DNA from: an uncultured archaeon | GTDB taxonomy: Archaea > Altiarchaeota > Altiarchaeia > IMC4 > SCGC-AAA252-I15 | DNA length: 59,292 nt | Reading direction: 5' to 3' | Assembly: GCA_902384455.1 (NCBI GenBank) | Contig: CABMCB010000068.1 | Coordinates: forward strand, 1 to 59,292 | In this document: positions 44,830 to 59,020 of the stretch, piece by piece | Layout of the letters: each line of letters begins with the position of its first letter | Position numbering within the stretch: position 1 is the stretch's first letter | Translations under genes and position numbers: made by a program | The notes under the pieces: generated by a model | Database searches by the model: none | What the model saw: only the letters and a program-made list of their open reading frames with translations | What the model was told of the DNA's origin: nothing

Positions 44830-45172
44830 ACGTCCACCATCGGGACTGCCCTAAGGTACAGGCGTGGGACTGCGGCCCTGAAGAAGGTGTCTGGTGTCGG
44901 TGTCCTGATGGGTGGCCCAAGTCCCAGGAAGCCTGGGAAGAATGGTACCAAGCAGGTGGATGGCGGGAGTTTCAGACCCCCAGAACCTCAAACAGTGACC
45001 CATACACCCGAGAGGACTGAACCTTGCCTGAGAAGAAGCTCATTCGAACCGAGGTCTTTGCTGGATTCACACGTGCTATCGAATCCAGGACATACCTCGT
45101 TGACGGCAAAGAGGTTACTGAAACTGAAGTGGTCAGACCTCCCGGTGAAAAGCCCTGTGACGGATACGACAA

Positions 45173-45526
45173 GTGCGAACCATCATAGCGGGTAGCCGCG
45201 ATGGCTTCACCTACGAAGAGGTCTGCGAGGGCATCAAAGCCAGTGGCTTCAACATCACCACTGTCATTTCAGGTACTGCGCGAGGGGTGGACAACTACGG
45301 GGAGCGTTGGGCCCGCGAGAATGGTATTCCCGTGGAACGATACCCAGCCGACTGGGTCACTCATGGAAAGTCTGCCGGATACAAGCGGAACGAGCTCATG
45401 GCTTTGAAGGCGGGTATCGGAGGCCAGTGCTTGGCTTTCTGGTACAAGAAGACCCCTGGAACCGGCCACATGATTGACATCGCTCGTAGGTTCAAACTGC
45501 GGGTATACGTAGTGGAGAAGAACTGA
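45173..45526 (+). CDS. SLOG/YspA-like (DUF2493) protein
   Basis: IIAGSR, VISGTARGVD, PADW..HGKSAGYKRN, GTGHMI. Confidence 0.88.
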   Translation: MRTIIAGSRDGFTYEEVCEGIKASGFNITTVISGTARGVDNYGERWARENGIPVERYPADWVTHGKSAGYKRNELMALKAGIGGQCLAFWYKKTPGTGHMIDIARRFKLRVYVVEKN

Positions 45527-45540
45527 GTTATGAGGCTCTA

Positions 45541-46091
45541 ATGCAAAACCATGAAATGTTTGGATTTCCTGGAGAAGTAATCGCCATCTGTAAAAAGTGT
45601 GGGTTTATACTTACAATGGAAGATGCGCTTAGAGTACATTTCGAAGTTACTCAAGACCCTTGTTCAGGAAATCCGACCAAGTTATTTGTGAGTCACATTT
45701 ATCCAGAATTTAGTGACTCTCAAGTAAAAGAATTAGCTATAATGCCTTCCGGTAAAATAGTAGTGATGGTAGAGGACAATCCAGGATATCCAGAGTCTTT
45801 ATGGTTCTATCCGAACGGAACAAATCCGAAAAGTAGGCTTTTGTTTAAACACGACTTGGAAACTAATAAACCATGACCAACGAACAAGCCTATGAAAAAG
45901 CCTGCGACCTTTGGGGCACTGACGCCTGGGTGGAGTGGAGTGCTCCCTGGGACAAGACCCTCCTGGCCAGGCCCTACCGTGTGGGCGCGGGACGGATGGA
46001 AAATATGTCCTGGAAGAACACCCACTATGGAACCGGGGAATGCTGGGAAGAGGCTTTCGAGAACGCCGCTAGACCCACACGCCGAAAGTGA
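45541..46091 (+). other. Two hypothetical ORFs (45541-45876 AT-rich; 45873-46091)
   Basis: Coupled ORFs. Confidence 0.55.
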
Positions 46092-46094
46092 CTC

Positions 46095-46664
46095 ATGGCC
46101 ATATCTCCTAATCTCCTACGCACCATCGAGCCTACTCACGCAGCCCAGATTGAAGCCCTCCTGGAGCAGCTTGTATTCCCCGTCGCCCGTAATACCGTCG
46201 TCTGTCCCAATATCAGCCACGGCTTCTTCCGCTCCCACGAGTCCGACCTCGTCTGTGTCTCTAAGGCAGGTTGGCTCACCGAAGTAGAAATCAAGGTTTC
46301 GGCCTCCGACTGGAAGAACGACCGGAAGAAGTCAAAATGGCAGTCCGAGGATGACGCCGTCTCTGAGGAGCTCTATGATAGGCGAGTACGTAGGTTCTTC
46401 TTCGCAGCTCCCCTTTCCCTTGCGCGTAGATACCAGGAATTCAACATAATGCTCTTCGCCGGGGTCCTCGGCTTCTCCTGGGAAGAGTATCAGCGTACTG
46501 GAAGCCCCTACTGTGTCCCTCGGGTAGAACACATCCGACCCGCGAAGGACCTAAAGGGTTCCCGTAAAGTAACCGACAAGGAACTTCTTACCCTCAGCAA
46601 GCTCTCCTCCATGCGCTACTGGGGTCTACGCCAAGCTATGTCCGGAAACCCCTACAACAAATAG
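46095..46664 (+). CDS. PD-(D/E)XK nuclease-like protein (MmcB-like)
   Basis: HESDLV...LTEVEIKVSASDWKNDRKK. Confidence 0.75.
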   Translation: MAISPNLLRTIEPTHAAQIEALLEQLVFPVARNTVVCPNISHGFFRSHESDLVCVSKAGWLTEVEIKVSASDWKNDRKKSKWQSEDDAVSEELYDRRVRRFFFAAPLSLARRYQEFNIMLFAGVLGFSWEEYQRTGSPYCVPRVEHIRPAKDLKGSRKVTDKELLTLSKLSSMRYWGLRQAMSGNPYNK

Positions 46665-46671
46665 ACCCCCA

Positions 46672-46828
46672 GGTGGAACACAGGGCCCTCCTCGTATGGG
46701 ACCCTAATCTGGTTTTTCCCTGTCTTTTTAAAGGGGTGGGGGTAGGTATGTCTGTCTTACTCGCATAGACAGGGTTTCTTAAAGGTAGTCGGAGGAATAT
46801 CCACACCGCGCCGAGGAATCGTTCCACC
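46672..46828 (+). ncRNA. Candidate rod-shaped structured element
   Basis: Nested inverted repeats GGTGGAAC/GTTCCACC, TCCTCG/CGAGGA, CCCTGTCT/AGACAGGG. Confidence 0.35.
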
Positions 46829-46878
46829 CCTCACCAAGGTGCCTGATTTCTGACATGTTTTTTTAAGGGGGGCCTTGA

Positions 46879-47052
46879 CTAGCGCGGCCCTAACTTGGTG
46901 GGCGTGATAGCCTCCAACATATCCACGCCGTGAGGGTTCATTTCCATAAAGGCCTTGATATGGTCCGCAATGAGAATATCAAGGGCGCTTTGCGCGTCCT
47001 GCTTGTATAGTTCGGCTTGTCTTTCGCTTGTGTTAATCGTGCCTTGTGTCAT
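46879..47052 (-). CDS. Early hypothetical protein (57 aa, not in ORF track)
   Basis: Own TTGACA promoter, AAGGGG RBS, MTQGTINTSERQ. Confidence 0.6.
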   Translation of the reverse strand: MTQGTINTSERQAELYKQDAQSALDILIADHIKAFMEMNPHGVDMLEAITPTKLGPR

Positions 47053-47144
47053 GGCCTGCCCCCTTGGTGCGTCTCCCTGCTATGCTGTTATCCTACCCCA
47101 TACCCCACACCCTGTCAAGGGGTATGGGGTGGGGCTTGTGGGCC

Positions 47145-47567
47145 TTAGGCTATGGCCTCCTCCTTGACGGCCTCAAGGCCTTCGAAGGCCTCAACCGTTT
47201 CGGGGTTGTCGTCCACGGTCGGGGCGGCTTGGGGCGTTTCGTCCATGCGGTCGTTCTCGGCAAGGAAAGACAGGTCAAGGGCGCGGCCCATGACAGCGGT
47301 TAAGGGCGCTTCCGTGGTTTCGTCCGGTTCCACCATGAAAGGGGTGGAAGCGGCGCGGCGCGGCGTGTATTCCTTGGAAGGGTTACGCTTGGAAACCCGA
47401 AGGCCGAAACCGTCCTTATAGCCTTCCTTGAGGTGGGAAAGGTCCGTATCCACGGAAGGGCCATAAAGGCCCATGATGATGCGGCGCGTCCTTTCCTTCT
47501 GGATACGCTCCCGCTTGATGTTGTTACGGCGGATTTTCTGAACCTTGCGGATGGTTGCGGCTTGCAT
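47145..47567 (-). CDS. Early hypothetical protein
   Basis: Own promoter, AAGGGGG RBS; basic N-half, acidic C-half. Confidence 0.7.
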   Translation of the reverse strand: MQAATIRKVQKIRRNNIKRERIQKERTRRIIMGLYGPSVDTDLSHLKEGYKDGFGLRVSKRNPSKEYTPRRAASTPFMVEPDETTEAPLTAVMGRALDLSFLAENDRMDETPQAAPTVDDNPETVEAFEGLEAVKEEAIA

Positions 47568-47650
47568 GTTCGGCCCCCTTGGTTGGTTGTAGCCTTTCGG
47601 CTATGGTTGGACTATAGCGCGTCCCTTAGGACGTGTCAAGAAAAAAGATT

Positions 47651-47809
47651 TTATTTTTTCGCGGCCTCCTCTTTGCGGTTGTTTAAATCCTGCATTACTT
47701 CAAAGGGGTAAAGGCCTTGGGCCGTCTCAAAGAAGAAAAAATTATCCTTTTCGACCGTTCCCGTTTTTGCGTTGTAGGTGTACCATTCACCATCGAAAAA
47801 GATTTTCAT
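47651..47809 (-). CDS. Early hypothetical protein
   Basis: ATG 47809 (MKIFFDGEW) after AAGGGGG. Confidence 0.65.
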   Translation of the reverse strand: MKIFFDGEWYTYNAKTGTVEKDNFFFFETAQGLYPFEVMQDLNNRKEEAAKK

Positions 47810-47900
47810 TGCGGCCCCCTTTTGCGTCCTTCTAAATTCAAGTATACTCAAAGGGGTTGAAGTGTCAAGATAAAAAATGATAGAATGAATTTTTTTCAAA

Positions 47901-48135
47901 GGGGGCTAAAACGTTTTAGTGATATGGGAAAACTAAAACGTTTTAATGGAAAGGGGGCTAAAATCGTTTCAAGGTATTGAGGCTGACAAGGCACGGGCTT
48001 AAAACGTTATGAGGTAAGGACCTCGACAAGGGCGGGGCTAAAATCGTTTCAAGGTATGGGACGCGACAAGGGAAAGACTAAAAACGTTATAAGGTTGTGG
48101 ATAAAAAAGGCTTGCCCTAAAATCGTTCTTAGGTT
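47901..48135. repeat. Degenerate tandem repeat array (40-bp period) with DnaA box
   Basis: CGTT cores at 47912, 47939, 47965, 48005, 48045, 48085, 48124; TGTGGATAA at 48096. Confidence 0.8.
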
Positions 48136-48163
48136 TATATTGTGGTGTCGGTTATTTTACAGG

Positions 48164-48508
48164 TTAGAAGGGCAAGCCCTTTGCTTGTCTTATGGTATTT
48201 TGTACGGCCTCAAGTGTAGGCCGGGCCGTTATCCTGTCATGATAATCATCGAAGGCGTTTTCCAGGAATTCCTCGACATGCTCAAGGGTTTTCAACATAT
48301 CAGGCGCGGCCCCGATTAAATCAAAATCGGCCCTTGCCTGCTCTTGTGCTCCCGGGAAAAGGTGGAGGTTATACCCGCTACGGCAAACCGTGCGGTTTGT
48401 CTTGACACCGAAAAGGGTTTTCCCATCGGGGGTCACAACGTCGAAACTATCGCCGGGGTTGCGCGGGGGTAGGACCTTCCAGGTGGGGGCCGCTGTGTTT
48501 GTTACCAT
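48164..48508 (-). CDS. Early hypothetical protein
   Basis: LIGAAPDML, a common phage LIAAAPELL-type motif. Confidence 0.7.
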   Translation of the reverse strand: MVTNTAAPTWKVLPPRNPGDSFDVVTPDGKTLFGVKTNRTVCRSGYNLHLFPGAQEQARADFDLIGAAPDMLKTLEHVEEFLENAFDDYHDRITARPTLEAVQNTIRQAKGLPF

Positions 48509-48549
48509 GACCCCCCACCCCCTTTTTATTTACAGGCCTTGACTACTGA

Positions 48550-48642
48550 TTACTTCCACCGCTTGACTACTAGGAAAAGGCCCCCGTAAATCAGGATAAA
48601 CATTAACGGGGTGAAAGGCGCAAGGTTCGGGGCGTGGTGCAT
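48550..48642 (-). CDS. 30-aa hydrophobic peptide
   Basis: AAGGA RBS; MHHAPNLAPFTPLMFILIYGGLFLVVKRWK. Confidence 0.45.
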   Translation of the reverse strand: MHHAPNLAPFTPLMFILIYGGLFLVVKRWK

Positions 48643-48665
48643 GGTGTTGGTCCTTGTTTAGGTGC

Positions 48666-48770
48666 TGTTTGGGTGGGGTGGGCGTTCCTGGGGTCCTGTC
48701 GCGTACCCTGTAGGACCTGAGCCCTTCAGGAGGAACAACCTACTGCCAGGCTGGCCCGCCCCCTCCCAAC
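48666..48770 (-). ncRNA. Structured RNA or 5' leader
   Basis: Starts at predicted +1 of TTGACA-17-TATCAT; closing stem plus three hairpins. Confidence 0.55.
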
Positions 48771-48875
48771 AAAACCATGATACCACGTCCCCGGCCTGCT
48801 GTCAAGGGTTATTAGCCCTTGAATTCCGGCTCCTGGCTTTCCATGCTGTAACCCAAAACCTCCCCCTTTCCCGGA

Positions 48876-49091
48876 CTATTCCCAGTCCGTGTCATGCAAG
48901 GCCTCACGAACGGCCTTGACAATGGCTTTCTCGTCGAATAGGATATCTTCCAGGTATTCGACCCGCACCCCGCGCCGTCCGTCCGCATCCGCCCCATAGG
49001 CGGGGTCCACGGTTTTGGTGGCTTTGGCTTCGAAGGTGAATTCTTTCCCGTTGGGTAGTTCGATGGTGAATTCAGCGGAGACTTGCGGCAT
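48876..49091 (-). CDS. Early hypothetical protein
   Basis: ATG 49091 after AGGGGG; DPAYGADADGRRG. Confidence 0.7.
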   Translation of the reverse strand: MPQVSAEFTIELPNGKEFTFEAKATKTVDPAYGADADGRRGVRVEYLEDILFDEKAIVKAVREALHDTDWE

Positions 49092-49155
49092 GGTCGGCCC
49101 CCTGTGTCGTTCAACGTGAGAACATATTACCACGGGGGGCCGGACCTGTCAAGGG

Positions 49156-49473
49156 TTACTTGAGGGCCTTAAGGGCCTTATCCACGGCCACCCGGAAGGT
49201 GTCCACGTCCACCCAGGCCCCGCCGTTGAAAGAAACCTGCAATTTGTCGTTTTCGGGGTTGAGGCGGAAAGACCCCAGGTTAGCCAAGGTGCCGGGGTTG
49301 TTGCTCCCGCCCGTCACGGCCACCTCGATGATGTCTTGCCCCGCCACCTCGTGGGCCTCGACACGGGCCCCCAGGTTCCAGCCCCGGACGTGGCCGGAAA
49401 GGCCGCTTTGCTTGGTGCCCATGCGTGTTGCTTGCCCGCGATTGCCTTGCATGCTCCCGTAGAATTGCGCCAT
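49156..49473 (-). CDS. Early hypothetical protein
   Basis: MAQFYGSMQGNRGQATRMG; own promoter and RBS. Confidence 0.75.
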   Translation of the reverse strand: MAQFYGSMQGNRGQATRMGTKQSGLSGHVRGWNLGARVEAHEVAGQDIIEVAVTGGSNNPGTLANLGSFRLNPENDKLQVSFNGGAWVDVDTFRVAVDKALKALK

Positions 49474-49582
49474 GACTTGCCCCCTTGCGTTTCGGTATCT
49501 GCTACCGTGAAAACATTATATCACGTTTTAAGGGATTGTCAAGGGCCTTGCGGGGTTGGGGTGGGTTGGGCTATAATCTTGC

Positions 49583-49618
49583 AAAAAAAGGCCCCTAGCG
49601 TGTAAACTAGGGGCCTTT
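49583..49618 (-). terminator. Intrinsic terminator
   Basis: AAAGGCCCCTAG...CTAGGGGCCTTTTTTT. Confidence 0.85.
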
Positions 49619-49638
49619 GGGTAGGGCTTGGGCGGGGC

Positions 49639-49971
49639 TTACTTGGCCCGCTTCTTTAGTTCGGCCTTGACGGCCTTAGCCAAGGGGCCGCACCACGTGG
49701 AAGCGTTGCAGGTGAAATAAAGGACGATTGACGCCCCGCTGTCCATGCCGTAGGTGTCCTTGACGTTTTCCAGGTCAAGCATTGCGTCAAGGTAGGGGGC
49801 CGCTGTGGGGTGGATGCGCCCGCCTTTCCAGTTCTTTTTGTCAGCGTACACCAGCCCCGCGATTTCCCGGATGGACAGGCTGTCCAGTTTGGGAAGGGTT
49901 AAGGGCGTCTCAGACACTACGCGCCCCTGTGGGCTTTTCTCGTCCACCACGGCCACGATTAAATCCCCCAT
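49639..49971 (-). CDS. Early hypothetical protein
   Basis: ATG 49971; AAPYLDAM...YGMDS...VLYF..NASTW. Confidence 0.75.
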   Translation of the reverse strand: MGDLIVAVVDEKSPQGRVVSETPLTLPKLDSLSIREIAGLVYADKKNWKGGRIHPTAAPYLDAMLDLENVKDTYGMDSGASIVLYFTCNASTWCGPLAKAVKAELKKRAK

Positions 49972-50078
49972 GCTATGCCCCCTTGTGTTCAGCGTGATAA
50001 CATCATAACACAAAATAAAAAATAGTCAAGCGTTATTTTATTCTTGACACGCAGGCGGGACCGTGGTATCATGTTGTT

Positions 50079-50184
50079 AGTAGGCCACAAGGCCGGGGGA
50101 GGTACTCGTACACCTTAACAACGGATATCGTTTTTAGTCCCCCAAAATAAAAAGCCCTCGACCCTTGACAGGTCGGGGGCTTTT
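50079..50184 (+). ncRNA. Small RNA copy 1
   Basis: TTGACA-17-TATCAT promoter, terminator at 50147-50184, no start codon after GGAGG, homologous to 51584. Confidence 0.6.
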
Positions 50185-50199
50185 GTGCTACGTTGGCCG

Positions 50200-50538
50200 T
50201 TACTTGGGGGCCTTCGTCACCACCACCTTGAGCGATTCCACGGGGAAGGTGTTGATGAGTTTCTTGGCTTTCAGCAGGTCTTCACCGAATTCCCGGATGG
50301 TTTCCTCCAGGCTGATGGAATCCCGGTCGTAGGACGTCACCACGGCGGACAGGCCGTCCACGTCCATGGTGCGGCTGTCGCTCTTCTCACCCTTCACCTT
50401 GGGGATGCCCCGGACCTCGATTTCCTCCAGGATGACGGCCTTGAGTTCCGCCTTGCGCTTCTCGGCCTTGGTGAAGGCCGAAGCCACCTGCCGGTACTCC
50501 GCCAGCACCTTCTTGATGTCCGCATTCGCCGTTGCCAT
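50200..50538 (-). CDS. Early hypothetical protein
   Basis: Own promoter, AGGGGG RBS. Confidence 0.7.
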   Translation of the reverse strand: MATANADIKKVLAEYRQVASAFTKAEKRKAELKAVILEEIEVRGIPKVKGEKSDSRTMDVDGLSAVVTSYDRDSISLEETIREFGEDLLKAKKLINTFPVESLKVVVTKAPK

Positions 50539-50773
50539 ACACTACCCCCTGACTACTGGATTCGGTCACTGTCGACCGTGAAAACATGATATCACGTCAT
50601 TACTGGATTGTCAAGGATTGAATTTCTTTTTTAATTGTGTTAATCTCATTCCACGAATCTATATCAATTTGCTTCCACCCCTCCAACACGCGCAGGCGCA
50701 ACCGCAGGAATTCCAGGCGGTGGGCTTTCTCGTCTATGGCAGGTTGGGCGGTGGGTTTGGGGGTTCTCACGGT

Positions 50774-50977
50774 TCAGGCCTTGCCCACGGTATACCACTT
50801 GGAAACGTGGGCATTATAGTCGTCGGTGCCGGGGATGAGGTCGGGGCGCGTGTCCTTGACGTATTCCTCAAGGAACGTATTGCAGGCTTGCAGGGTATCG
50901 AGGCCAAAGATAACTTCGGATGCCCCCTCGTATACCCGGTACCCCCCTGCCGTTTTCTTCTTGCCCCTGTACCGCAT
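50774..50977 (-). CDS. Early hypothetical protein
   Basis: Own promoter, GAGGAGG RBS. Confidence 0.65.
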   Translation of the reverse strand: MRYRGKKKTAGGYRVYEGASEVIFGLDTLQACNTFLEEYVKDTRPDLIPGTDDYNAHVSKWYTVGKA

Positions 50978-51135
50978 GGCCCCCTCCTCGACTACTGGAC
51001 TACTGACATATTACCAGGATAGGCCCCTCTTGTCAAGGGCCTTGACGGCCTTGCGGTTGTATGCTTTCTTGGAGCCCTTAACCTTGGGGGTTGTCTTGAT
51101 ACCCCAGACACGGCGGGCCCTGTCTTTGGCCTTGA

Positions 51136-51477
51136 TTAGTATGCGGTCGTGGGGCATTCCAGGCCAAGCCCTTTCAGGATTCGCCGGTAAACCTCGGCCT
51201 TGGACATGTAATAATCATAATGCTGTTCGCCGGGCCGGAAGTTCGTCCACATGTTGGCGGACACGTTGCGGGTGATATCCAGGGTGAGGGTGCCGGGTAT
51301 GCGGTAATAATCCATGAAACCGGCCCGGCTATAGTGGGCGATGAAGCCCGAGGCGAGGTACAGGAAATTGTACCCCGTGGAATTCAGAGCGGTGATGTCG
51401 TTGCAGGCCTTCAGGACATTGGCCACAATGCGGTCTTGCATGGCCTTGGTCAACGGAAGAATCGGCTTGTTTGGCAT
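51136..51477 (-). CDS. Early hypothetical protein
   Basis: YNFLYLASGFIAHY; own promoter and RBS. Confidence 0.75.
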   Translation of the reverse strand: MPNKPILPLTKAMQDRIVANVLKACNDITALNSTGYNFLYLASGFIAHYSRAGFMDYYRIPGTLTLDITRNVSANMWTNFRPGEQHYDYYMSKAEVYRRILKGLGLECPTTAY

Positions 51478-51583
51478 GTTGCCCCCTTGTGTTCAGCGTG
51501 GATACATAATACCGCATTACTAGACTACTGTCAATATAATTTATTTTGTTGACAGGCTGGGGGTGCCGTGGTATTATGGTGTC

Positions 51584-51695
51584 AGTAGGCAATGCGCCGA
51601 GGGAGGTACTCGTATACAATAATAACGGATAACGATTTTAGGACCATATAAAAGGACGCCCCCACCACCCCAGGGGGCCGGGATGGTGGGGGCTG
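51584..51695 (+). ncRNA. Small RNA copy 2
   Basis: TTGACA-17-TATTAT promoter; homologous to 50079; followed by GCCCCCACCA/TGGTGGGGGC hairpin. Confidence 0.6.
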
Positions 51696-51737
51696 AATTC
51701 CAGTGGACGAGGGGGCCCGTCCATGGTATCCTGTAGG

Positions 51738-51929
51738 CTAGACCGTGGCGCGATGCGCGGCCCGGAAGGCCCGGGTCACCAACCGACGGCGGGCCGGGGT
51801 CCAATGCTGGGCCTTGAGGCCCAAGGTGGCGAGGATGGCCAGTTCCCGGAGGATATTCCCCGTGCGCTTGAGACGGCGCTTGGTGGTGGTGGCTTTGGCG
51901 AGGTAGTAATTCCCCGGACACTTTTTCAT
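51738..51929 (-). CDS. Basic early hypothetical protein
   Basis: ATG 51929 after AGGGGG. Confidence 0.55.
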   Translation of the reverse strand: MKKCPGNYYLAKATTTKRRLKRTGNILRELAILATLGLKAQHWTPARRRLVTRAFRAAHRATV

Positions 51930-51994
51930 TCTCAACCCCCTAAGGTGGTTTGTCCTTCCCATCACCTACATACTACCACACTACTGGACTACTG

Positions 51995-52729
51995 TCAAGC
52001 CTTTTCGAGGAGGGTCAAGGCGGGGTCCACCACGAATCCCGAGGTATCCTTGCGGGCCTTGCCCTTGGCAATGAGGCCCACAATGGCCCCCTGATAGCCT
52101 TCCTCGAAACGGAGGTCGGTCTTATCCCCGTTCAAGACCTTGCGGCCCAAGAATTCCTTGGGTAGGCTCTTCCCACGGAAGACCACGGCGACATTGATAC
52201 CGGCCTCAAGGGCCCGCATCACGTCCACCATATTACTCTCGGACCTGGAAAATGTCAAGTGGTAATTCGCCACTTGGTTTTCCAGGGCTTTCTTGATATC
52301 CTTGGTGTAGTCGTAGAATTGAATATCGGGGAAGGCCTCAAAGACGGTCTTTCCCTGATAGGGGCGGAAAGCCCCAAAATTGATGTCGGACGTGCCATTG
52401 AGGCGGACGAAAGCCTTCTTACCCGTCCGCAAGGCGGACCGTTGCAGGGCTTCCAGTTCCTCGAAAAGGGTTTGGAAAAACAGGTCCTTGTTCTTGAACC
52501 ACAAGGCGGTTTTCCTCAACCGGCCCTTGATGACAGGGGCCATGACACCCCGGCCCGCTGTGAAAAGGCAGGATTCCTTGCATCCTTGGGAAGCGAACGG
52601 GCAAAGGTTGCCCATACCGCTTTGTTTCTCCGGGGTCAGGTACAGGATAGACCCCACATAGCCCCCCTTGGCTATGCTCTTGGCGGTCTTGTAGTTCTTG
52701 CTTGCGGCTGATAGGACGTTGTCGGCCAT
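51995..52729 (-). CDS. Gene product 88 (GP88)-like Cys-motif protein
   Basis: LCPFASQGCKESCL, VRLNGTSDI, FYDYTK, YHLTFSRSE, GDKTDLRF. Confidence 0.8.
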   Translation of the reverse strand: MADNVLSAASKNYKTAKSIAKGGYVGSILYLTPEKQSGMGNLCPFASQGCKESCLFTAGRGVMAPVIKGRLRKTALWFKNKDLFFQTLFEELEALQRSALRTGKKAFVRLNGTSDINFGAFRPYQGKTVFEAFPDIQFYDYTKDIKKALENQVANYHLTFSRSESNMVDVMRALEAGINVAVVFRGKSLPKEFLGRKVLNGDKTDLRFEEGYQGAIVGLIAKGKARKDTSGFVVDPALTLLEKA

Positions 52730-52829
52730 GCCTTGCCCCCTTGTGTTACTTGCAACGTGGATACATAATAACACAAGCCCACGGATTGTCAATCATAATC
52801 CGAGGGCTTGTATTTCAGGCTTGGCCGTG

Positions 52830-53072
52830 CTACCTTGAGGATAACCGCACCTTTCTCTTTTCCTCCCTCTTCCCATCCCTCAGAATGACCAGCCGCTGCA
52901 GGTCCATGAGGTCTTGCAGGCCGAGTTGTATCTCCAGGCACGTGCTCTCGATGGCATGCCTCTTGGGGCCCGAGGACAGAATACGAGCGTCCCTCTTGGC
53001 CTTGGAAACCATCTTGAAAACCTCAGTGTAGGCCTCCAATTTGTTCCCCGCTTCCAGAACCAAGCTCTTCAT
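52830..53072 (-). CDS. Hypothetical protein
   Basis: AAGGAGGT RBS, own promoter. Confidence 0.65.
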   Translation of the reverse strand: MKSLVLEAGNKLEAYTEVFKMVSKAKRDARILSSGPKRHAIESTCLEIQLGLQDLMDLQRLVILRDGKREEKRKVRLSSR

Positions 53073-53260
53073 GCTTGACCTCCTTGCAATGATGAATCAT
53101 CCTACCACAGCCCCCTCCCTCCGTCAAGGGGCTTGACAACCCCCCACCCCGTGTGCTATACTGGAGGTTTGGCCATTATTATTCACGACTACTGGACTAC
53201 TGAGCCTTGTCAAGAAACTAATCACTTGACTACCGGACTACTGTGTGGTACAGTGGGGCC

Positions 53261-53449
53261 ATGGATAAAAGCCGCTGTCATAAAACCGAAAAGCCTGACC
53301 CTTCCTATGCGGCCCATTTGAGGCTCCTTCGTAAGCATTGGGAAGGAAAGTTGGAATACGCTAAGCAACACGACTATGAGGGAGTAGACTTGCCCCAAGG
53401 TGTTATTCAAGGCCTTTCAATAGCCATCACCCTCCTCGAACAAGGCTAA
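53261..53449 (+). CDS. Hypothetical protein (leaderless)
   Basis: TTGACT-17-TACAGT with ATG 7 nt later. Confidence 0.55.
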   Translation: MDKSRCHKTEKPDPSYAAHLRLLRKHWEGKLEYAKQHDYEGVDLPQGVIQGLSIAITLLEQG

Positions 53450-53632
53450 CCCCCTCCCCCTCAAGAGGTACCCCCACCCCCCCCACTGGACTACTAGACT
53501 ACTGAGCCCCCTTACGTGTGCGAGGGGACAGAGGGAGCACGGACAGGGGAATACTGGACTACTGGGTTGTCGTGTAAATTATTAAGCCCATAAAACCAAG
53601 GTATTACTGGACTATTGAGAACCCATCAATAA

Positions 53633-53686
53633 TGTAAAATTTTTTTACATGTAAAGGGACCTTACACAGTGTAAAGTTCTAATACA
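53633..53686. repeat. Three tandem TGTAAA-N5-(T/C/A)(T/A)TACA boxes
   Basis: 53633-53649, 53650-53666, 53670-53686. Confidence 0.65.
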
Positions 53687-53761
53687 CCCTACCAGTCAAC
53701 CCCCCAGTCCCTTTTATGATTGACTGGGAGTACCCGACTACTGTATCCTGGGACTACTGAG

Positions 53762-54068
53762 TTATTTGTCGAGGTAGAATGAGCACAGGAAGCAAGCGAC
53801 CATGACCACAAGGGATGTACAGTAGTAGATGGTCTTGGAGACGTTGCCTTTTTCGGAGTGGTATTTGGCCATTCCCATGCTATAGACCACCATCAGAACC
53901 ATCAAAGTCTTCAAGTCAATCCTCCTGGTGGGGTTTGGGTTCCCACTGTTGGCATGGGCCAAGGATGTCGTTCTCGGCCTCTTCCTCGGCCTTACGCCCG
54001 GAGTAGCCCAGGGAGAGGTAATGCTGGATACGCTCGGCAATGAGTTCTTCTTGGGCTCCCCGTGGCAT
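53762..54068 (-). other. Two small ORFs (53916-54068; 53762-53914 membrane peptide with TTG start)
   Basis: Promoter at 54126; AGGGGG and AGGAGG RBSs. Confidence 0.5.
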
Positions 54069-54129
54069 GTACTACCCCCTACCCTTAGGATGACTACAGC
54101 GTACCAGGGAAAGGGTGAAGTGTCAAGTA

Positions 54130-54309
54130 TTACTTGACTACTGATTTTCCCTTGTATTTCACACACGGACGTGGTATGATGCCCCTGCGGCATTGTACCT
54201 TGCTCTTCCTCTCGCACCCTACGGCCTCATGGGGGTCGCTCCCAGTGCAGAACCTGCAATGGGAGGACCTTTTATCGGTGTCGGGGCAGATGTATGGGGT
54301 CTTGGGCAT
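54130..54309 (-). CDS. Cys/His-rich small protein (59 aa, not in ORF track)
   Basis: TAATG coupling; YICP...C..C....PH....C...PCVKY. Confidence 0.6.
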   Translation of the reverse strand: MPKTPYICPDTDKRSSHCRFCTGSDPHEAVGCERKSKVQCRRGIIPRPCVKYKGKSVVK

Positions 54310-54821
54310 TACTTACCCGGGTAGGCCACGGCCCATAGTTTCTCACCGATGGCCTGCAGGGGGGCCGAAATGCCGTCGTTGTCCTTGTCCAGGGCGTCCA
54401 GGCAGTCCACCAGGGCCTTGCATTCCTCCTTGGTGAGGAGTACCGTGGTGGGGGCAGGCTTGGGGGACTTGACGGCCTTGAGGGTCACGGTCACGGTATG
54501 GCCCCCGTCGTCGGTGTCGACCAAGACGTAGTCCTCGGAGGGCTTGCGGAAATAATCCGTGTCCTTCAGCACCTGGGACCACTGCTCCTTGAACAGGTAG
54601 CAGGGGTCACCCACGTACACGCCCGTCTGGGTCTTGACAAGGCCCTTGGCCTCGCCATACCCGCGCACCTTGAGGGTGGCGTTCACGGGGCCCTTGGCGT
54701 CGATGTAGGTACACGTGGGATAGAACGAGGTGGGCCGGTATTTGCCCTTGTACTTGGCGATGAATTCCTTCGAAACCACCGCCACCATCCCCGCATCCAC
54801 CGGCACGTCCGTGAGTCTCAT
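54309..54821 (-). CDS. Hypothetical protein
   Basis: ATG 54821 after GGAGG; VDAG and VGDPCY motifs. Confidence 0.7.
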   Translation of the reverse strand: MRLTDVPVDAGMVAVVSKEFIAKYKGKYRPTSFYPTCTYIDAKGPVNATLKVRGYGEAKGLVKTQTGVYVGDPCYLFKEQWSQVLKDTDYFRKPSEDYVLVDTDDGGHTVTVTLKAVKSPKPAPTTVLLTKEECKALVDCLDALDKDNDGISAPLQAIGEKLWAVAYPGK

Positions 54822-54911
54822 GTATGCCTCCCCTATTAGGATGACTATATAATATCCGATTTTATTGTTACTGTCAATACACATTAAACGAATTTAATAT
54901 GTAATATAATA

Positions 54912-54947
54912 AATAAAAGGCCGTGCGGAGGGGAACCGCACGGCCTT
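54912..54947 (-). terminator. Intrinsic terminator
   Basis: AAGGCCGTGCGG-loop-CCGCACGGCCTTTTATTT. Confidence 0.85.
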
Positions 54948-54978
54948 GACCTGCGTGGGTTGGGGTGTTATGATGCCC

Positions 54979-55218
54979 TTACTTCAACCCCTCCACCATG
55001 CTCAAGCGGGTGGCCTTGGGCCAGTTCTCCGCCCGCGCAACCACGCGCCTGATGGCCCGGTTGATGTCGCCCTTGTCGGCGTCACAGATGTACCGGGGGA
55101 CCGAGGAACCCTTGCCGGTGTCTTTATCCCGGCTGAATTCCGTGTGGTCGAAGGACAAATTGCCCTTCTTGGTCTTGCAGATGTAGCACTGCTTGACCTC
55201 GTCGTTCGCATTCGCCAT
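54979..55218 (-). CDS. Zn-binding hypothetical protein
   Basis: CYIC...ICDAD; GAGG RBS. Confidence 0.65.
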   Translation of the reverse strand: MANANDEVKQCYICKTKKGNLSFDHTEFSRDKDTGKGSSVPRYICDADKGDINRAIRRVVARAENWPKATRLSMVEGLK

Positions 55219-55301
55219 GGCAGACCTCTCAGGTGGTGTTGTCGACTACTGACCCAGTATATCCTACCTGGGTCAGTATGTCAACCCCTGGGACTACCAG
55301 A

Positions 55302-55754
55302 CTACTCGAATTTCCGGGCCTTCACCAGCTCGTCCAGGGTCCAGCGGCGCACCAGCTTGGCCTGGGACAGGTCCTTCATGCCCCAAGGGGTGGAGTACAC
55401 CTCGACCCCGAAGTCCTTGGTGATGCGGTAGGCGAACTCGATGTCCCCGTGCCACTGGGTGTCGATTCCGTGGGACAGGAAATCCTGCTTGAACTTCCGG
55501 TTGGCGTAGGCCGGGTCGTTGGGGTAGGACTTCTTCATCTTGCGGTTGAAGGCCTTGCGGTCGGTCACGTCGTCCTGGATGAGGGTGGCCGACAAGTGGG
55601 CCGTCAGGTACGCTGGGTCCCACCCTCGTCCATCCTCGAAGGCGGGCAGAAGCTTCTTGAGTGTCGGAAGCACCCCCGAAGGGTACCCGTCGCAATGCTT
55701 GTACACCTTGGCCTCCTCGTTCTCCTCGACCACTAACTGGCACCGAGTGCTCAT
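55302..55754 (-). CDS. Phage protein with YxHxDGYP motif
   Basis: VYKHCDGYPSGV...HGDIEFAY. Confidence 0.75.
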   Translation of the reverse strand: MSTRCQLVVEENEEAKVYKHCDGYPSGVLPTLKKLLPAFEDGRGWDPAYLTAHLSATLIQDDVTDRKAFNRKMKKSYPNDPAYANRKFKQDFLSHGIDTQWHGDIEFAYRITKDFGVEVYSTPWGMKDLSQAKLVRRWTLDELVKARKFE

Positions 55755-55868
55755 GTCCTTCCCCTTTTCCCCTGTATTATCAACGTGAGAGCATAATACC
55801 TGAATATCCTGCCGCTGTCAATATATTATTTTGGCTTGACAAGGGAATATATTTCGAATATATTGGGG

Positions 55869-56000
55869 GTGTAGTGAGCGGCGCAAGCCGTTAGTCTGGC
55901 TGGGGTCTATCCCCTAACCCGGGAGAAAGCCCTTTACTGCGAAAGCTTTAAGCCACGTAGGGAGCACAGCCTTGGAATCGTGGCCTCACTACGCTTTTAT
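55869..56000 (+). ncRNA. Multi-branched structured RNA
   Basis: TTGACA-17-TATATT; closing stem GTAGTGAG/CTCACTAC; GCAA and GAAA tetraloops; U-rich tail. Confidence 0.65.
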
Positions 56001-56019
56001 TTCATAGGGGAGGTTGTTC

Positions 56020-56325
56020 ATGCCGGAGCCATTCAAAATCAACGGCAAGCATGCCTGCTACGTGGCATTGCACAACGGCATCGGTTTGGTGGTCGAGGGT
56101 GAGCAAGGCTACCACCCCGTGTGCGAGGGCTATAGTGGCCCCAACACCATGAAGGCCTACCAGGACTGGGTGGACGAGCGCAACAAGAACCTGGGCGTGT
56201 CCGAGGAAGACGCCAACGCCCTCCACATCGGGTCCATGATGGGCTGGGATGTCCCCGGCGCGGGGCGCTTCCGCCAGGGGTACAAGTGGCCGGTACCCAT
56301 CACCCGCACACCATGCCGCGCCTGA
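56020..56325 (+). CDS. Hypothetical protein
   Basis: GGGAGG RBS; GSMMGWDVPGA. Confidence 0.7.
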   Translation: MPEPFKINGKHACYVALHNGIGLVVEGEQGYHPVCEGYSGPNTMKAYQDWVDERNKNLGVSEEDANALHIGSMMGWDVPGAGRFRQGYKWPVPITRTPCRA

Positions 56326-56344
56326 GTACTTGACGAGCGCTTGA

Positions 56345-56500
56345 CTACTGAGGCCTCTTCCTGCGGGGAGAGGCCTTTTTATTTGTCTTTTTTACTTGAC
56401 GGGTACTTGACAGTTCTCCGCGAGAGGCCTTTACGTAGGCCTCCTCGATTTCCTTGGCAACTTCTTTGCGGTATTGACTTCTCGTATCGAAGACGTACAT
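56345..56500 (-). CDS. Small basic hypothetical protein
   Basis: GGAGG RBS, ATG 56500. Confidence 0.5.
   Translation of the reverse strand: MYVFDTRSQYRKEVAKEIEEAYVKASRGELSSTRQVKKTNKKASPRRKRPQ
56351..56384 (+). terminator. Intrinsic terminator
   Basis: AGGCCTCTTCC-TGCG-GGGAGAGGCCTTTTTATTT. Confidence 0.8.
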
Positions 56501-56591
56501 GGCACCCCTCCCAGTGTATCCAGTATACACAATGTCAAGTTTAATGTCAAGAATACTTGACTACTGAGGATTTATTTGATAGAGTGTTTTA

Positions 56592-56903
56592 ATGAAAATA
56601 TGTCCCTTAGCCTCCACCTGTAAAAGCACCTGCTACCACAAGCAGCCCCATCAGCGTACGGGCAGCTCTTGTGATTTTGGGGTATCCGACCTATCAAGGT
56701 GCCAGCCTTGTATTGAATATACAGGCGATGTTCAGAATCAGCAGGCTACTCAGGCACCCGCTGTACCAGAGGACCAGCAGTACATTTGCCCCAAGCTGGA
56801 GTGCAGTGAACGAAAAGGCTGCAACCACGCTAACCCACACTCCGAGCGTACAGCCTGCCATTCTTTTGACAGGAAAAGCTGTGTTCCGTGTATCTTTGCT
56901 TGA
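56592..56903 (+). CDS. Cys/His-rich two-repeat protein (leaderless)
   Basis: Two ICP...C...C.H..PH...C...C.PCI units; TTGACT-17-TAGAGT. Confidence 0.7.
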   Translation: MKICPLASTCKSTCYHKQPHQRTGSSCDFGVSDLSRCQPCIEYTGDVQNQQATQAPAVPEDQQYICPKLECSERKGCNHANPHSERTACHSFDRKSCVPCIFA

Positions 56904-56933
56904 CTTACTGATTATTTTATAGTATAATACACC

Positions 56934-57074
56934 ATCGGCTAGACTCCCTTGCCGTCCGAGGCCACGGTTAATACCCGTCCGCCCTAAGAAATATCGGGCC
57001 GGTACCTGGGTAGGGTCCAAACCTCCCTACTACTGGCAATAACAACAGGGAGCCGTGCGCCCTCTATAGGGCTT
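56934..57074 (+). ncRNA. Multi-branched structured RNA
   Basis: TTGACT-17-TATAAT; CTCCCT/AGGGAG and TTGCC/GGCAA closing stems; no ORF. Confidence 0.55.
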
Positions 57075-57084
57075 GACTACTGGC

Positions 57085-58153
57085 CTACAGGTGTACATCG
57101 GGCATACTAATATATTTGCCCATGTTCCATACACGACGTTCCATATCATCACGCAAGCGCATAGCCCAATCTATGTCGACCTTGTAGTGGGCGGAGGTAC
57201 CCTCCAGCATAGGACCGGGTACACCACATGTAGCAGCAATGAGGTCACCCTTAAACTGGTTTATAGCTTGAGCACTGAAATCAAAGGACTGAAATGCTGG
57301 CATGGTATAACCATGTCTTAATACAACCAAACACTTATCACAGCCCGCATGACACTTCTTGCACGTGGTTTGGTACCACGAGTTGGTCATGCTCTGTACG
57401 TCTTTGATATCCTCCCCACAATATGTACGTCCAGTAATGGGGTTTAGGTTGTGAGTATCGCTTAGCACTGGGAGTCTCCTAGCTGGAGGCTTCGCCTTGG
57501 GGCTTGGTCTTCTTCACGAGGGCTTCAATGACAAGGTCGCGTTGTTCGATTTCAGATTTCAAAAGCTCAATTTGTTTCAGGGCTTCGAGGTACATTTGGG
57601 TTTGACACGGTCTGTCCTCGAAGTTGTGCTCACACCGACCTGGAGGGCTGCAGTCAGCCGCAATCGAGAATTCCTCTTCGGGTGTCAAGGGAGGTATGTC
57701 CCAGTAAATAGCCATGTTTTACTTCCTAAAGATGCTGATGGACTGAACCTTCGTGATTTTGGCATTCAAGCTCAGGTCTTCCACTTCGCGGTAGAACTTC
57801 TGGGCTTGCTCAGCCACCTTGACGAACGCTTCCTTATCCTCATCAAGGAGTGCCTGGGCTCCATTGTCGAAGAGGTTGTCACAGTGTCCGCTGATGTCGG
57901 GCATGTTCAGGTCGACACCCATACCATGGAACTTGTCCATGTACCACGCAATGCTTCGGGCCCACGAAACGATGTCCAGCCTCAAGGACCACACGGTCAA
58001 GTCGTTCGAACTGGTGCAAAAGCTACCGTCGCTCACCTCGTGCACGTGTCCGTCTTCGACCCGCTTGACCTGGACAAGTTTGTAGTTGTGCATTCCCCAG
58101 TCACCTACCTTGGGGGTCCAGCCCGTGTTGTACTTTCGGTCAAGCACTCGCAT
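57085..58153 (-). other. Three hypothetical ORFs (57085-57468, 57479-57715, 57719-58153)
   Basis: Tightly packed minus-strand operon. Confidence 0.65.
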
Positions 58154-58844: not shown

Positions 58845-58863
58845 ATTACAACCTTTGTGTAAA

Positions 58864-59017
58864 TAGAGGGCTCCCGGTAGACCTCACGAGTGGTCAAGCG
58901 CAATGCTTAGGACTCGTTCACCGAGGGGAATAGCTACCGACTTACGATTCGATAGTAGAGCCCCTTAGTAGGTCAGTATCTGCAGCCAACCCTGCAGACG
59001 GTCCCGGCAGCCCTCTA
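58864..59017 (-). ncRNA. Multi-branched structured RNA
   Basis: TAGAGGGCT/AGCCCTCTA closing stem plus four internal stems filling the intergenic space. Confidence 0.6.
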
Positions 59018-59020
59018 GTC

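What the first reader, a model, noticed from the sequence alone, without database searches (positions are those of the whole stretch)
50044..51695. Duplicated sRNA with an orphan SD, a GGA motif and the reverse complement of the array core
Seen: two promoters divergent from the early genes both reach AGTAGGC at their predicted +1 (50079, 51584), then a GGC/GCC hairpin with different loops, GGGAGGTACTCGTA, AACGGATA, CG(T/A)TTTTAG and a terminal hairpin. No start codon follows GGAGG. The 3' part is complementary to the CTAAAA(T/A)CG core of the 47.9-48.1 kb array. Known: CsrA/RsmA binds ANGGA. Inference: a CsrA or ribosome sponge, an anti-repeat RNA, or a shared DNA-binding site.
Basis: partly seen in the sequence, partly recalled or inferred. 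Interest (0 to 1): 0.7.

Follow-up and report, generated by a model that had tools for sequence, protein, structure and literature searches.

The report
Duplicated phage promoter control cassette
Two (in relatives three) copies of a strong bacterial-type promoter followed by a conserved, non-coding 50-base cassette sit among the early genes of an uncultured tailed phage; the cassette carries a ribosome-binding site without a gene and a symmetric protein-binding site that also forms a nearby array, so it looks like a new regulatory module rather than a classical small RNA.

Summary
Both window copies have a near-consensus sigma-70-type promoter, a 5' hairpin, a start-codon-less Shine-Dalgarno run, the box GTACTCGTA, a 9-base spacer and a 16-base site. 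The same cassette occurs in seven distinct copies in three related phage lineages from metagenomes, at syntenic places. No Rfam family matches. The core has no conserved fold. Only one of seven copies has a terminator called on its own strand, so a discrete, terminated sRNA holds for copy 1 only. The complementarity to the array comes from dyad symmetry. Twenty sites (13 array units, 7 cassette sites) share one symmetric consensus around a central CG. This fits a double-stranded DNA operator for a dimer. Best reading (0.4): a promoter-proximal control cassette, with hairpin and orphan SD stabilising the RNA and an operator shared with the array. Rivals are a decoy sRNA and an antitermination loading site. 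The CsrA test was void: the bin is an archaeon and the contig is a mis-binned bacteriophage. Function is untested. Interest is moderate.

The parts
50002..50029 (-). divergent early promoter of the 110-aa gene (start 49971), part of the duplicated block
   Evidence: TTGACT-16-TATGAT, 10 of 12. Its leader and RBS are identical over 21 bases with copy 2.
50044..50072 (+). copy 1 promoter P1
   Evidence: TTGACA-17-TATCAT, 11 of 12, TG before the -10.
50079..50094 (+). copy 1 predicted transcript start (AGTAGGC) and 5' hairpin GGCC/ACAA/GGCC
   Evidence: Hairpin -6.1 kcal/mol, z -3.8 against shuffles.
50095..50110 (+). copy 1 purine run (start-codon-less Shine-Dalgarno) plus box 1 (TACTCGTA)
   Evidence: Columns 1-16 of alignment A3, 13 of 16 invariant in 7 copies. 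No start codon follows.
50111..50121 (+). copy 1 variable spacer of fixed length
   Evidence: Nine variable columns and no length change in 7 copies.
50122..50137 (+). copy 1 box 2: 16-bp dyad-symmetric site of the array family (+44 to +59)
50154..50185 (.). hairpin after copy 1: bidirectional terminator (A-run before, T-run after)
   Evidence: Called on both strands. It ends the - strand gene 50200-50538 and would end the + transcript at about 107 nt.
51506..51534 (-). divergent early promoter of the 113-aa gene (start 51477)
   Evidence: TTGACA-17-TATTAT, 11 of 12.
51549..51577 (+). copy 2 promoter P1
   Evidence: TTGACA-17-TATTAT, 11 of 12, TG.
51584..51598 (+). copy 2 predicted start and 5' hairpin GGC/AATGC/GCC
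   Evidence: The same 31 bases are present in relative L091_c2.
51599..51614 (+). copy 2 orphan SD plus box 1
51626..51641 (+). copy 2 box 2, dyad site (+43 to +58)
51658..51693 (-). hairpin next to copy 2: terminator of the - strand gene 51738-51929, with no T-run on the + strand
   Evidence: Called on the - strand only.
47906..48132 (.). array of 7 sites of the same dyad family (periods 27, 25, 40, 40, 40, 39 bp); units 1 and 2 are perfect or near-perfect 14-bp palindromes
   Evidence: A comparable array stands at the syntenic place in the relative.
47145..47567 (-). 140-aa protein with a basic N-terminus and acidic tail, predicted disordered; candidate site-binding factor (inference only)
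   Evidence: Its homologue lies directly downstream of the relative's array. No family is known.

Best explanation
Each copy is a promoter-proximal control cassette of a bacteriophage early region. I do not read it as a free-standing regulatory sRNA.

Anatomy. A near-consensus host sigma-70-type promoter fires against, or between, the early genes. It is followed by four parts:
1. a short GC hairpin close to the 5' end;
2. a strong Shine-Dalgarno run with no start codon;
3. the invariant box GTACTCGTA;
4. after exactly 9 variable bases, a 16-bp dyad-symmetric site.

Proposed mechanism. The dyad site is read as double-stranded DNA by a dimeric phage regulator. The same regulator occupies the 6-7-site array 2 kb away. 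Bound at +43 to +77, it would gate elongation from these counter-directed promoters by roadblock or looping. The hairpin and the orphan SD would protect whatever RNA is made from 5' decay, as in the SP82 and STAB-SD cases.

Shown: the anatomy, its conservation, the symmetry of the sites, and the lack of coding or folded-RNA signal. Inferred: DNA binding, the identity of the binding protein, the roadblock, and the stabiliser role.
For: Conservation. Seven distinct copies in three lineages keep the promoter: TTGACA, a 17-base spacer and TG before the -10 in 7 of 7. Twenty-two of 49 core columns are invariant. The flanking genes are only 47-74% identical in protein.

Site symmetry. Twenty sites were aligned on the central CG. 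The left arm and the reverse-complemented right arm give the same consensus: C at -7 in 16 of 20 in both arms, A at -4 in 19 and 17, A at -2 in 20 and 20. Array units 1 and 2 are 14-bp palindromes in both phages. The relative's array has units in both orientations. L091_D carries a literal array unit. A half-site also lies in the spacer of the 12-of-12 promoter at 49515-49542.

No RNA or coding signal in the core. Fold z-scores are -2.1, +1.3, -0.7, +1.1, -2.9, +0.3 and -1.5. No Rfam family matches. No start codon follows the SD.

5' end features. The 5' hairpin differs in sequence and length but is present in each copy (combined p about 0.01). The purine run varies only purine-to-purine. By my reading against the 16S 3' end as I recall it, it keeps about 8 pairs with the anti-SD.

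Precedent. Strong SD sequences stabilise transcripts without a start codon, and RBS mutations shortened the half-life of SP82 phage mRNA (passage read in PMC7509114).
Against: An operator at +43 to +77 is an unusual place for a repressor. Its distance from the start varies between copies, so no fixed geometry with the promoter exists.

Box 1 with the purine run is conserved more strictly than the operator, and in a directional, non-symmetric way. This is read more naturally on the RNA or on the non-template strand.

No DNA-binding protein was identified. The early genes have no known families, and the 140-aa candidate is predicted disordered.

At one mismatch, half-sites are not enriched in the window as a whole: 49 found against 48.4 expected. 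Only the cluster and the exact forms are enriched.

There are no expression data: no RNA run holds the stretch.
Confidence: 0.4

Rival explanations
1. A stable trans-acting small RNA or decoy. The abundant transcript uses its single-stranded conserved core (SD run, box 1, box 2) to titrate 30S subunits or an RNA-binding protein (CsrA-like or phage-encoded), or to pair with a target mRNA.
For: The promoters are very strong. A 5' hairpin is present. The core is unstructured and so accessible. Copy 1 has the promoter-to-terminator layout of an sRNA of about 107 nt. Six of 7 copies hold GGA in both the SD run and ACGGAT.
Against: Only 1 of 7 copies has a terminator call on its own strand. The third type runs straight into another promoter and a gene. 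L091_D lacks the second GGA. No extended complementary target exists in the window or the bin, although the bin is not the host. The dyad symmetry of box 2 has no reason in a single-stranded RNA, and box 2 cannot form the hairpin in the cassettes (my pairing by eye).
Confidence: 0.2
2. A cis-acting loading site for processive antitermination, working like lambda nut, HK022 put or the RfaH ops element. RNA polymerase is modified as it passes box 1 and box 2. It then reads through the hairpins and terminators that follow, giving long counter-transcripts or expressing the scattered + strand genes.
For: The cassette always lies just after a promoter, at a variable distance. Its conservation is directional. 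There are 2-3 copies per genome, each followed by a hairpin or terminator. + strand genes lie further on at 53243, 56020 and 57497. A basic, disordered 140-aa protein is encoded next to the array, a lambda N-like profile by recall. Box 1 resembles the ops 12-mer as I recall it, which is a lead and not a test.
Against: No conserved boxB-like or put-like structure is present. Downstream of copies 1 and 2 the + strand is antisense to real genes. No NusG-, Q- or N-family protein was found in the window. The array is left unexplained.
Confidence: 0.17
3. A recently copied promoter module in which only the promoters matter. The rest would be conserved by gene conversion between copies.
For: The duplicated block includes the divergent promoter pair. 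Copies look mosaic: win_c2 and L091_c2 share 31 identical 5' bases but differ in the spacer and site.
Against: The same boxes are kept in three lineages at syntenic places, while hairpin, spacer and flanks have diverged. Other early promoters of the phage lack the cassette.
Confidence: 0.1
4. An anti-repeat RNA that pairs with transcripts of the array.
For: There is 9-11 bases of complementarity to array units. A weak + strand promoter (47857-47886) and a hairpin (48167-48182) flank the array.
Against: Because of the dyad symmetry, both strands of the array pair about equally: duplex z -2.2 and -3.6 for copy 1, -2.1 and -0.15 for copy 2. Three copies match the array in the same orientation. 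There are no CRISPR features.
Confidence: 0.05
5. A tiny gene translated from a non-canonical start after the SD.
For: The frame starting right after the purine run is open for at least 14 codons in all 7 copies, and the spacer is exactly 3 codons (my reading).
Against: No ATG, GTG or TTG lies within 20 bases of the SD in 7 of 7 copies. The peptide ends differ in length and sequence. An open frame of about 15 codons is expected about half the time by chance.
Confidence: 0.03

Closest known systems
5' mRNA stabilisers made of a start-less Shine-Dalgarno or polypurine run (STAB-SD of cry3A; early RNA of Bacillus phage SP82)
   Same: A strong SD near the 5' end with no start codon, in a phage early transcript. 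The role is taken to be protection from 5' decay. (A passage of PMC7509114 and the reference list of PMC3997798 were read. The original papers were not held.)
   Different: Here the SD is fused to an invariant box and a DNA-type dyad site, comes in 2-3 copies, and the host and its RNases are unknown. Stabilisation is not tested.
Operator or centromere arrays with dispersed single sites (F sopC 43-bp repeats with inverted repeats, phage N15 dispersed centromere sites, lambda ori iterons); recalled, not looked up
   Same: A tandem array with about 40-bp period in which each unit holds a 14-16-bp inverted repeat, plus single sites of the same family near promoters elsewhere.
   Different: No ParB/SopB, Rep or O-like protein was found in the window. 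The sites lie inside transcribed leaders. The phage looks lytic.
lambda nutL/nutR and HK022 putL/putR
   Same: Duplicated conserved elements just downstream of early promoters and upstream of terminators.
   Different: No conserved hairpin of boxB or put type. Downstream DNA is antisense to genes.
Short phage counter-transcripts such as lambda oop RNA (recalled)
   Same: A strong promoter opposite to early genes. Copy 1 ends at an intrinsic terminator after about 107 nt.
   Different: Copy 1 does not overlap a coding region before its terminator, and the other copies lack a terminator on their strand.
CsrB/RsmZ-type CsrA sponges
   Same: GGA-containing motifs, one resembling an SD.
   Different: At most two GGA per RNA, not presented in conserved loops, and one copy has only one. 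CsrA in the true host could not be checked.

Membership tests
Any Rfam family | Match at or above the family's gathering score | tested here: not met
   The whole window gave only two tRNAs. A permissive scan of 49900-51800 gave 9 hits, all far below their gathering scores and mostly on the terminator hairpin.
Terminated bacterial/phage sRNA gene | Own promoter | tested here: met
   Seven of 7 copies have TTGACA-17-TAnnnT with TG. This is a consensus match only, with no expression data.
Terminated bacterial/phage sRNA gene | Intrinsic terminator on the same strand | tested here: not met
   A + strand terminator is called for window copy 1 only. The hairpins of the other four hairpin-bearing copies are called on the - strand only, and the two D-type copies have no hairpin.
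CsrA-sponge RNA (CsrB/RsmZ type) | Several GGA motifs, mostly in hairpin loops | tested here: not met
   Two GGA at most. The core has no conserved hairpins. L091_D has lost the second GGA.
CsrA-sponge RNA (CsrB/RsmZ type) | Host encodes CsrA | not testable with these tools
   The bin has no PF02599 match, but by RpoB it is an Altiarchaeota archaeon and not the host. The host is unknown.
tracrRNA / CRISPR anti-repeat or solitary-repeat RNA | CRISPR array (repeats of about 28-37 nt with spacers) and long anti-repeat complementarity | tested here: not met
   The array period is 25-40 bp in all, with conserved parts throughout. Shared sequence is 9-11 nt. No CRISPR-like repeats or Cas1 are in the bin, with the host caveat.
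Dyad-symmetric operator family shared with the array | Both arms of each site fit one half-site consensus around a common centre | tested here: met
   In 20 sites the constrained positions of the left arm and the reverse-complemented right arm agree.
Dyad-symmetric operator family shared with the array | A cognate DNA-binding protein | not testable with these tools
   No candidate with a known DNA-binding fold was found.
STAB-SD / polypurine 5' stabiliser | SD-like run near the 5' end without a start codon at translational distance | tested here: met
   The purine run lies at +17 to +45. No ATG, GTG or TTG lies within 20 nt in 7 of 7 copies (by eye).
STAB-SD / polypurine 5' stabiliser | SD-dependent increase of RNA half-life | not testable with these tools
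   This needs half-life measurements.
nut/put-type antitermination element | Conserved RNA stem-loop(s) recognised by the factor or by polymerase | tested here: not met
   The only recurrent stem is the 5' hairpin, whose sequence is not conserved. The core z-scores scatter around zero.

The most novel reading that the evidence does not exclude
The cassette would be a new kind of loading site. As polymerase leaves three counter-directed early promoters, the orphan SD and box 1 recruit a ribosome or a phage factor to the nascent transcript, making transcription terminator-resistant. The dyad site and the nearby array of the same sites act as a titratable gate that times this event. Antisense sweeps through the early genes would then shut them off and switch on the scattered + strand genes. 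This would be an early-to-middle switch built from convergent transcription.
Probability: 0.1. Interest if true: 0.75.

Novelty: new variant of a known kind. Interest (0 to 1): 0.42.

Why it matters
The early regions of large uncultured phages are almost blank. Here a non-coding module is kept in 2-3 copies per genome and across three lineages, with more invariant positions than the proteins around it. It links a promoter, an RNA 5'-protection device and a DNA site family that also forms an array. If the reading holds, it gives a handle on how such phages time early transcription. It would also add an orphan-SD stabiliser in a phage whose host is unknown, beyond the Bacillus cases read here. 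If the bolder reading holds, it would be a new route to antitermination or to gene shut-off by convergent transcription. The work also shows that the contig is a bacteriophage mis-binned into an archaeal genome. This matters for anyone using that bin.

Tried and rejected
Searches for relatives:
- Rfam gave nothing.
- blastn of 47-53 kb against GenBank phages gave no match.
- IMG/VR relatives of the GP88-like neighbour gene: 169 found, best 66% (L003). None carries the cassette or the array.
- The exact box pattern in IMG/VR gave 4 hits, all inside coding sequence and unrelated.
- A relaxed two-box pattern gave 13 IMG/VR and 22 genome loci, none with the flanking features. The stricter pattern gave 0 in the genome collection.
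- In the metagenome scan, 2 of 7 loci (L092, L093) were unrelated coding hits and were dropped.
- Protein searches with the 110-aa and 112-aa neighbours in IMG/VR found no relatives.
- A sequence-only model of the core found no further full copy in the window or the related loci.

Expression and reads:
- No RNA holder is listed.
- The four DNA runs gave only short, identical, low-depth contigs.

Host-dependent tests:
- CsrA, Hfq and Cas1 are absent from the bin. The results are void because the bin is archaeal.
- A simple repeat scan of the bin found no CRISPR-like array.

Other tests:
- A search for trans targets of boxes 1 and 2 in the bin found only the copies themselves and a few 11-mers expected by chance.
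- A - strand peptide across the copies has an ATG in copy 2 only.
- The array as a folded repeat RNA showed no repeated unit structure on either strand.
- The duplex test of sRNA against the array did not discriminate between strands.
- The small hairpin with an AGGGGGCC loop after copy 2 is better read as the spacer of a further + strand promoter that is conserved in the relatives.
- The ESM Atlas gave no usable hit for the 140-aa protein.
- Hue et al. 1995 was not held.
- The motif strings are not in print in the held library. The only 3 hits are unrelated papers by their titles. A word search for a comparable phage RNA listed nothing apt (listing only).
Full report
CONTEXT

The window is a whole contig (C68) of a 2.41-Mb, 103-contig bin. 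It encodes baseplate J, a tail-tube initiator, a sheath initiator, two sigma-70-family proteins, an RNA ligase, a GP88-family protein and two tRNAs. From 45 kb to its end it carries 37 sigma-70-type promoter matches against 8.7 expected. Almost every small - strand gene there has its own TTGACA/TATAAT promoter and a G-rich ribosome-binding site. This is the early region of a tailed bacteriophage.

The bin itself is an archaeon. Its RpoB fragment is 71-80% identical to Candidatus Altiarchaeota genomes. The contig is therefore mis-binned, and nothing in the bin says anything about the host. The closest IMG/VR relative, L003, is a 73-kb fragment rated 42% complete, so the phage is probably well over 100 kb.

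THE OBSERVATION

- promoters at 50044-50072 and 51549-51577, both 11 of 12 with TG before the -10;
- AGTAGGC seven bases after each -10;
- a small GC hairpin with different loops;
- the 14-mer GGGAGGTACTCGTA, exact only at these two places in the window and in the whole bin;
- AACGGATA, and CG(T/A)TTTTAG.

No start codon follows. The duplicated block is wider than stated, about 170 bp. It includes the back-to-back - strand promoter and 21 identical bases of the - strand leader and RBS.

Two points need correction. The hairpin after copy 2 has no T-run on the + strand and is called as a terminator on the - strand only. The hairpin after copy 1 is bidirectional.

RELATIVES

A two-box pattern found nothing in the species-genome collection. 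It found 7 loci in JGI/ENA metagenome contigs. Two of these were unrelated coding hits. Five were true relatives from four contigs.

One 10.6-kb contig (L088/L089) is syntenic with the window. It has a copy next to the homologue of the 112-aa gene (metaA) and a copy before the GP88 homologue (metaB). It also has a third copy after it (metaD), found by BLAST and not by the pattern. A 2.1-kb contig (L091) has a copy-2-type and a third-type copy.

That makes seven distinct copies in three lineages. A sequence model of the core finds no others in the window or in these loci. Looser patterns and neighbour-protein searches in IMG/VR and the genome collection gave only chance hits or nothing. More distant GP88-bearing phages lack both cassette and array.

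WHAT IS CONSERVED

All seven copies have TTGACA, a 17-base spacer with TG, and a TAnnnT -10. After the predicted start comes a GC hairpin whose sequence and length differ: 3 to 8 pairs, within 15 to 34 bases. Each folds, with a combined p of about 0.01 against shuffles, which is modest and driven by copy 1.

Next comes a gap-free 49-base core with 22 invariant columns. It consists of:
- an 8-base purine run (GGGGGAGG, GAGGGAGG or GAAGGGGG);
- TACTCGT(A/T);
- nine variable bases of constant number;
- a 16-base site.

The purine changes are all purine-to-purine. Each form keeps about eight pairs, with one or two G-U, to the 16S 3' end as I recall it. The third form equals the phage's own usual RBS. 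This is a genuine strong SD, yet no ATG, GTG or TTG lies within 20 bases in any copy (by eye).

One reading frame stays open for at least 14 codons in all copies. It has no start, the ends differ, and chance alone gives this about half the time. I reject coding.

IS IT A FOLDED RNA OR A DISCRETE sRNA?

The core has no common structure. MFE z-scores are -2.1, +1.3, -0.7, +1.1, -2.9, +0.3 and -1.5. Rfam has nothing.

Only window copy 1 has a terminator call on its own strand. The hairpins beside four other copies are terminators of the upstream - strand genes. The third-type copies have no hairpin and run directly into another + strand promoter and a + strand gene. In the relatives a second + promoter follows each copy (L088 3069 and 5937, L089 4540, L091 1648).

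The constant unit is therefore promoter plus cassette, and not promoter-to-terminator. The + strand beyond copies 1 and 2 is antisense to real genes. The 113-aa and GP88 genes have homologues in other phages, the 112-aa gene has a 56%-identical homologue in the relative, and the + strand ORFs look like antisense artefacts.

THE LINK TO THE ARRAY

The array at 47906-48132 has seven units with periods of 27, 25, 40, 40, 40 and 39 bp. A comparable array stands at the syntenic place in the relative. There two of six units are inverted, and one unit has the cassette's own left arm. L091_D carries, in place of AACGGATA..., a literal array unit in the array's own orientation.

I aligned all 20 sites on the central CG. 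The left arm and the reverse complement of the right arm have the same constrained positions: C at -7 (16 of 20 in both), T at -6 (10 and 16), A at -4 (19 and 17), A at -2 (20 and 20), and W at -1 and -3. Units 1 and 2 are 14-bp palindromes in both phages.

The site is thus a 14-16-bp dyad, and the cassette's box 2 is a complete site. Symmetry of this kind is the mark of a dimer on double-stranded DNA. A single-stranded RNA motif has no reason to be symmetric, and in the cassettes the two arms cannot pair with each other (my pairing by eye).

One more half-site sits in the spacer of the perfect 12-of-12 promoter at 49515-49542, where the relative has the other repeated motif of this phage instead.

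Against over-reading: at one mismatch, half-sites are not enriched in the window as a whole (49 against 48.4 expected). The exact forms are enriched (7 against 0.9 expected; 9 of the 14 in the bin lie on this contig).

MECHANISM

I commit to a promoter-proximal control cassette (confidence 0.4). The dyad site at +43 to +77 is bound as DNA by a phage dimer that also fills the array, and it gates these counter-directed promoters. The hairpin and orphan SD protect the RNA 5' end.

The last point has precedent. A review states that transcripts lacking start codons were stable as long as strong SD sequences were present, and that RBS mutations shortened the half-life of SP82 phage mRNA (PMC7509114, passage read). 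The STAB-SD and Hue et al. papers were seen only as references, and the original was not held.

A candidate binding protein, by position only, is the 140-aa protein at 47145-47567. It is basic at its N-terminus, acidic at its tail and predicted disordered. Its homologue lies immediately downstream of the relative's array.

Weak points:
- the operator position is unusual and its distance from the start varies;
- box 1 plus the SD is conserved more tightly than the operator, and in a directional way that suggests reading on RNA or on the non-template strand;
- no binding protein is identified;
- there are no expression data.

RIVALS

- A trans-acting decoy sRNA (0.2).
- A nut/put/ops-like loading site for antitermination (0.17). 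This fits the promoter-proximal, directional, multi-copy layout and the N-like look of the 140-aa protein, but lacks a conserved stem and leads into antisense DNA.
- Mere promoter duplication with gene conversion (0.1).
- Anti-repeat pairing (0.05). Duplex scores are similar on both array strands.
- A tiny ORF (0.03).

CsrA could not be tested, for want of a host.

NOVELTY

No Rfam family matches, and the motif strings are not in the held literature (the only three hits are unrelated papers by title). No comparable case turned up in a word search (listing only).

The parts are of known kinds: operator arrays, orphan-SD stabilisers and phage counter-promoters. I did not find their fusion into one conserved, multi-copy cassette described. 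I rate it a new variant of a known kind, of moderate interest, with a 0.1 chance of something bolder.

Noticed in passing
whole bin G000; marker at G000:C18:43885-44997 (L130): By RpoB the bin is a Candidatus Altiarchaeota archaeon (71-80% identity to such genomes). Contig C68 has sigma-70 genes, sigma-70 promoters and SD sites. The phage contig is therefore mis-binned, and host-dependent inferences from the bin are void.
   Followed up: yes
window 45000-59292, e.g. 50986-51001, 53189-53204, 51512-51528: A second repeat family, the 8-mer CAGTAGTC, is often found as a tandem pair. It lies at transcript starts or in the spacers of many early promoters on both strands: 18 copies on this contig against about 2 expected. 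It is also present in the relatives. It is probably another operator or an initiator element. AGTAGGC at the start of the cassette transcripts is a near-copy of it.
   Followed up: partly
window 55793-56325: A third back-to-back promoter pair (55821 on the - strand, 55836 on the +) has the same AT-rich centre but no cassette. Its + transcript begins with a CGGC/GCAA/GCCG hairpin. It has a leader of about 150 nt with a terminator-like hairpin (55979-55993) just before the RBS of the + strand gene 56020-56325. This is a possible attenuator.
   Followed up: no
window 47857-48190: A weak + strand promoter match (47857-47886, 9 of 12 with TG) and a + strand terminator-like hairpin (48167-48182, inside the end of the - strand gene) bracket the array. 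The array could therefore also be transcribed as a + strand RNA of about 300 nt. Neither strand showed a repeated unit fold.
   Followed up: partly
window 51705-51735; L088:5937-5966; L091:445-475: Downstream of the copy-2-type cassettes there is a conserved stretch with the spacer AGGGGGCCCG and a TG-extended -10. In the relative it scores as a + strand promoter (TTGACG-18-TATACT). In the window it falls below the scan's threshold. The ATG at 51723 with a good RBS opens a 123-codon + frame. That frame is not conserved beyond its first four codons.
   Followed up: partly
L091:396-530 (- strand): In this relative the 63-aa gene next to copy 2 is missing. In its place a perfect 12-of-12 promoter (530-502) drives a - strand transcript of about 100 nt with no ORF. 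It ends at the terminator 417-396 and would overlap the + strand transcript from the cassette. This is a possible sense/antisense RNA pair.
   Followed up: no
window - strand leaders at 49975-49995, 51480-51500, 49100-49125, 52740-52765, 55760-55790: Several early - strand promoters share a leader of the form TCACG(C/T)TGA...ACAAGGGGGCA before the ATG. The early promoter-leader units therefore come in families, and L003 has a similar design.
   Followed up: partly
window 48550-48805 (- strand): The promoter at 48805 is close in sequence to the copy 1 promoter. It is followed by a leader of about 140 nt and a 30-codon ORF for a small hydrophobic peptide (48550-48642), ahead of the 114-aa gene.
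   Followed up: no
L091:1339-1520: A + strand promoter (TTGACA-17-TATAGT) has an ATG only six bases after the -10. This suggests a leaderless mRNA for a 49-aa protein just upstream of the third-type cassette.
   Followed up: no
window 51995-52792 versus L003:5473-6762: The order of the GP88-like gene and the 113-aa gene is swapped between the window and the more distant relative L003. This fits shuffling of promoter-bounded early gene modules.
   Followed up: no
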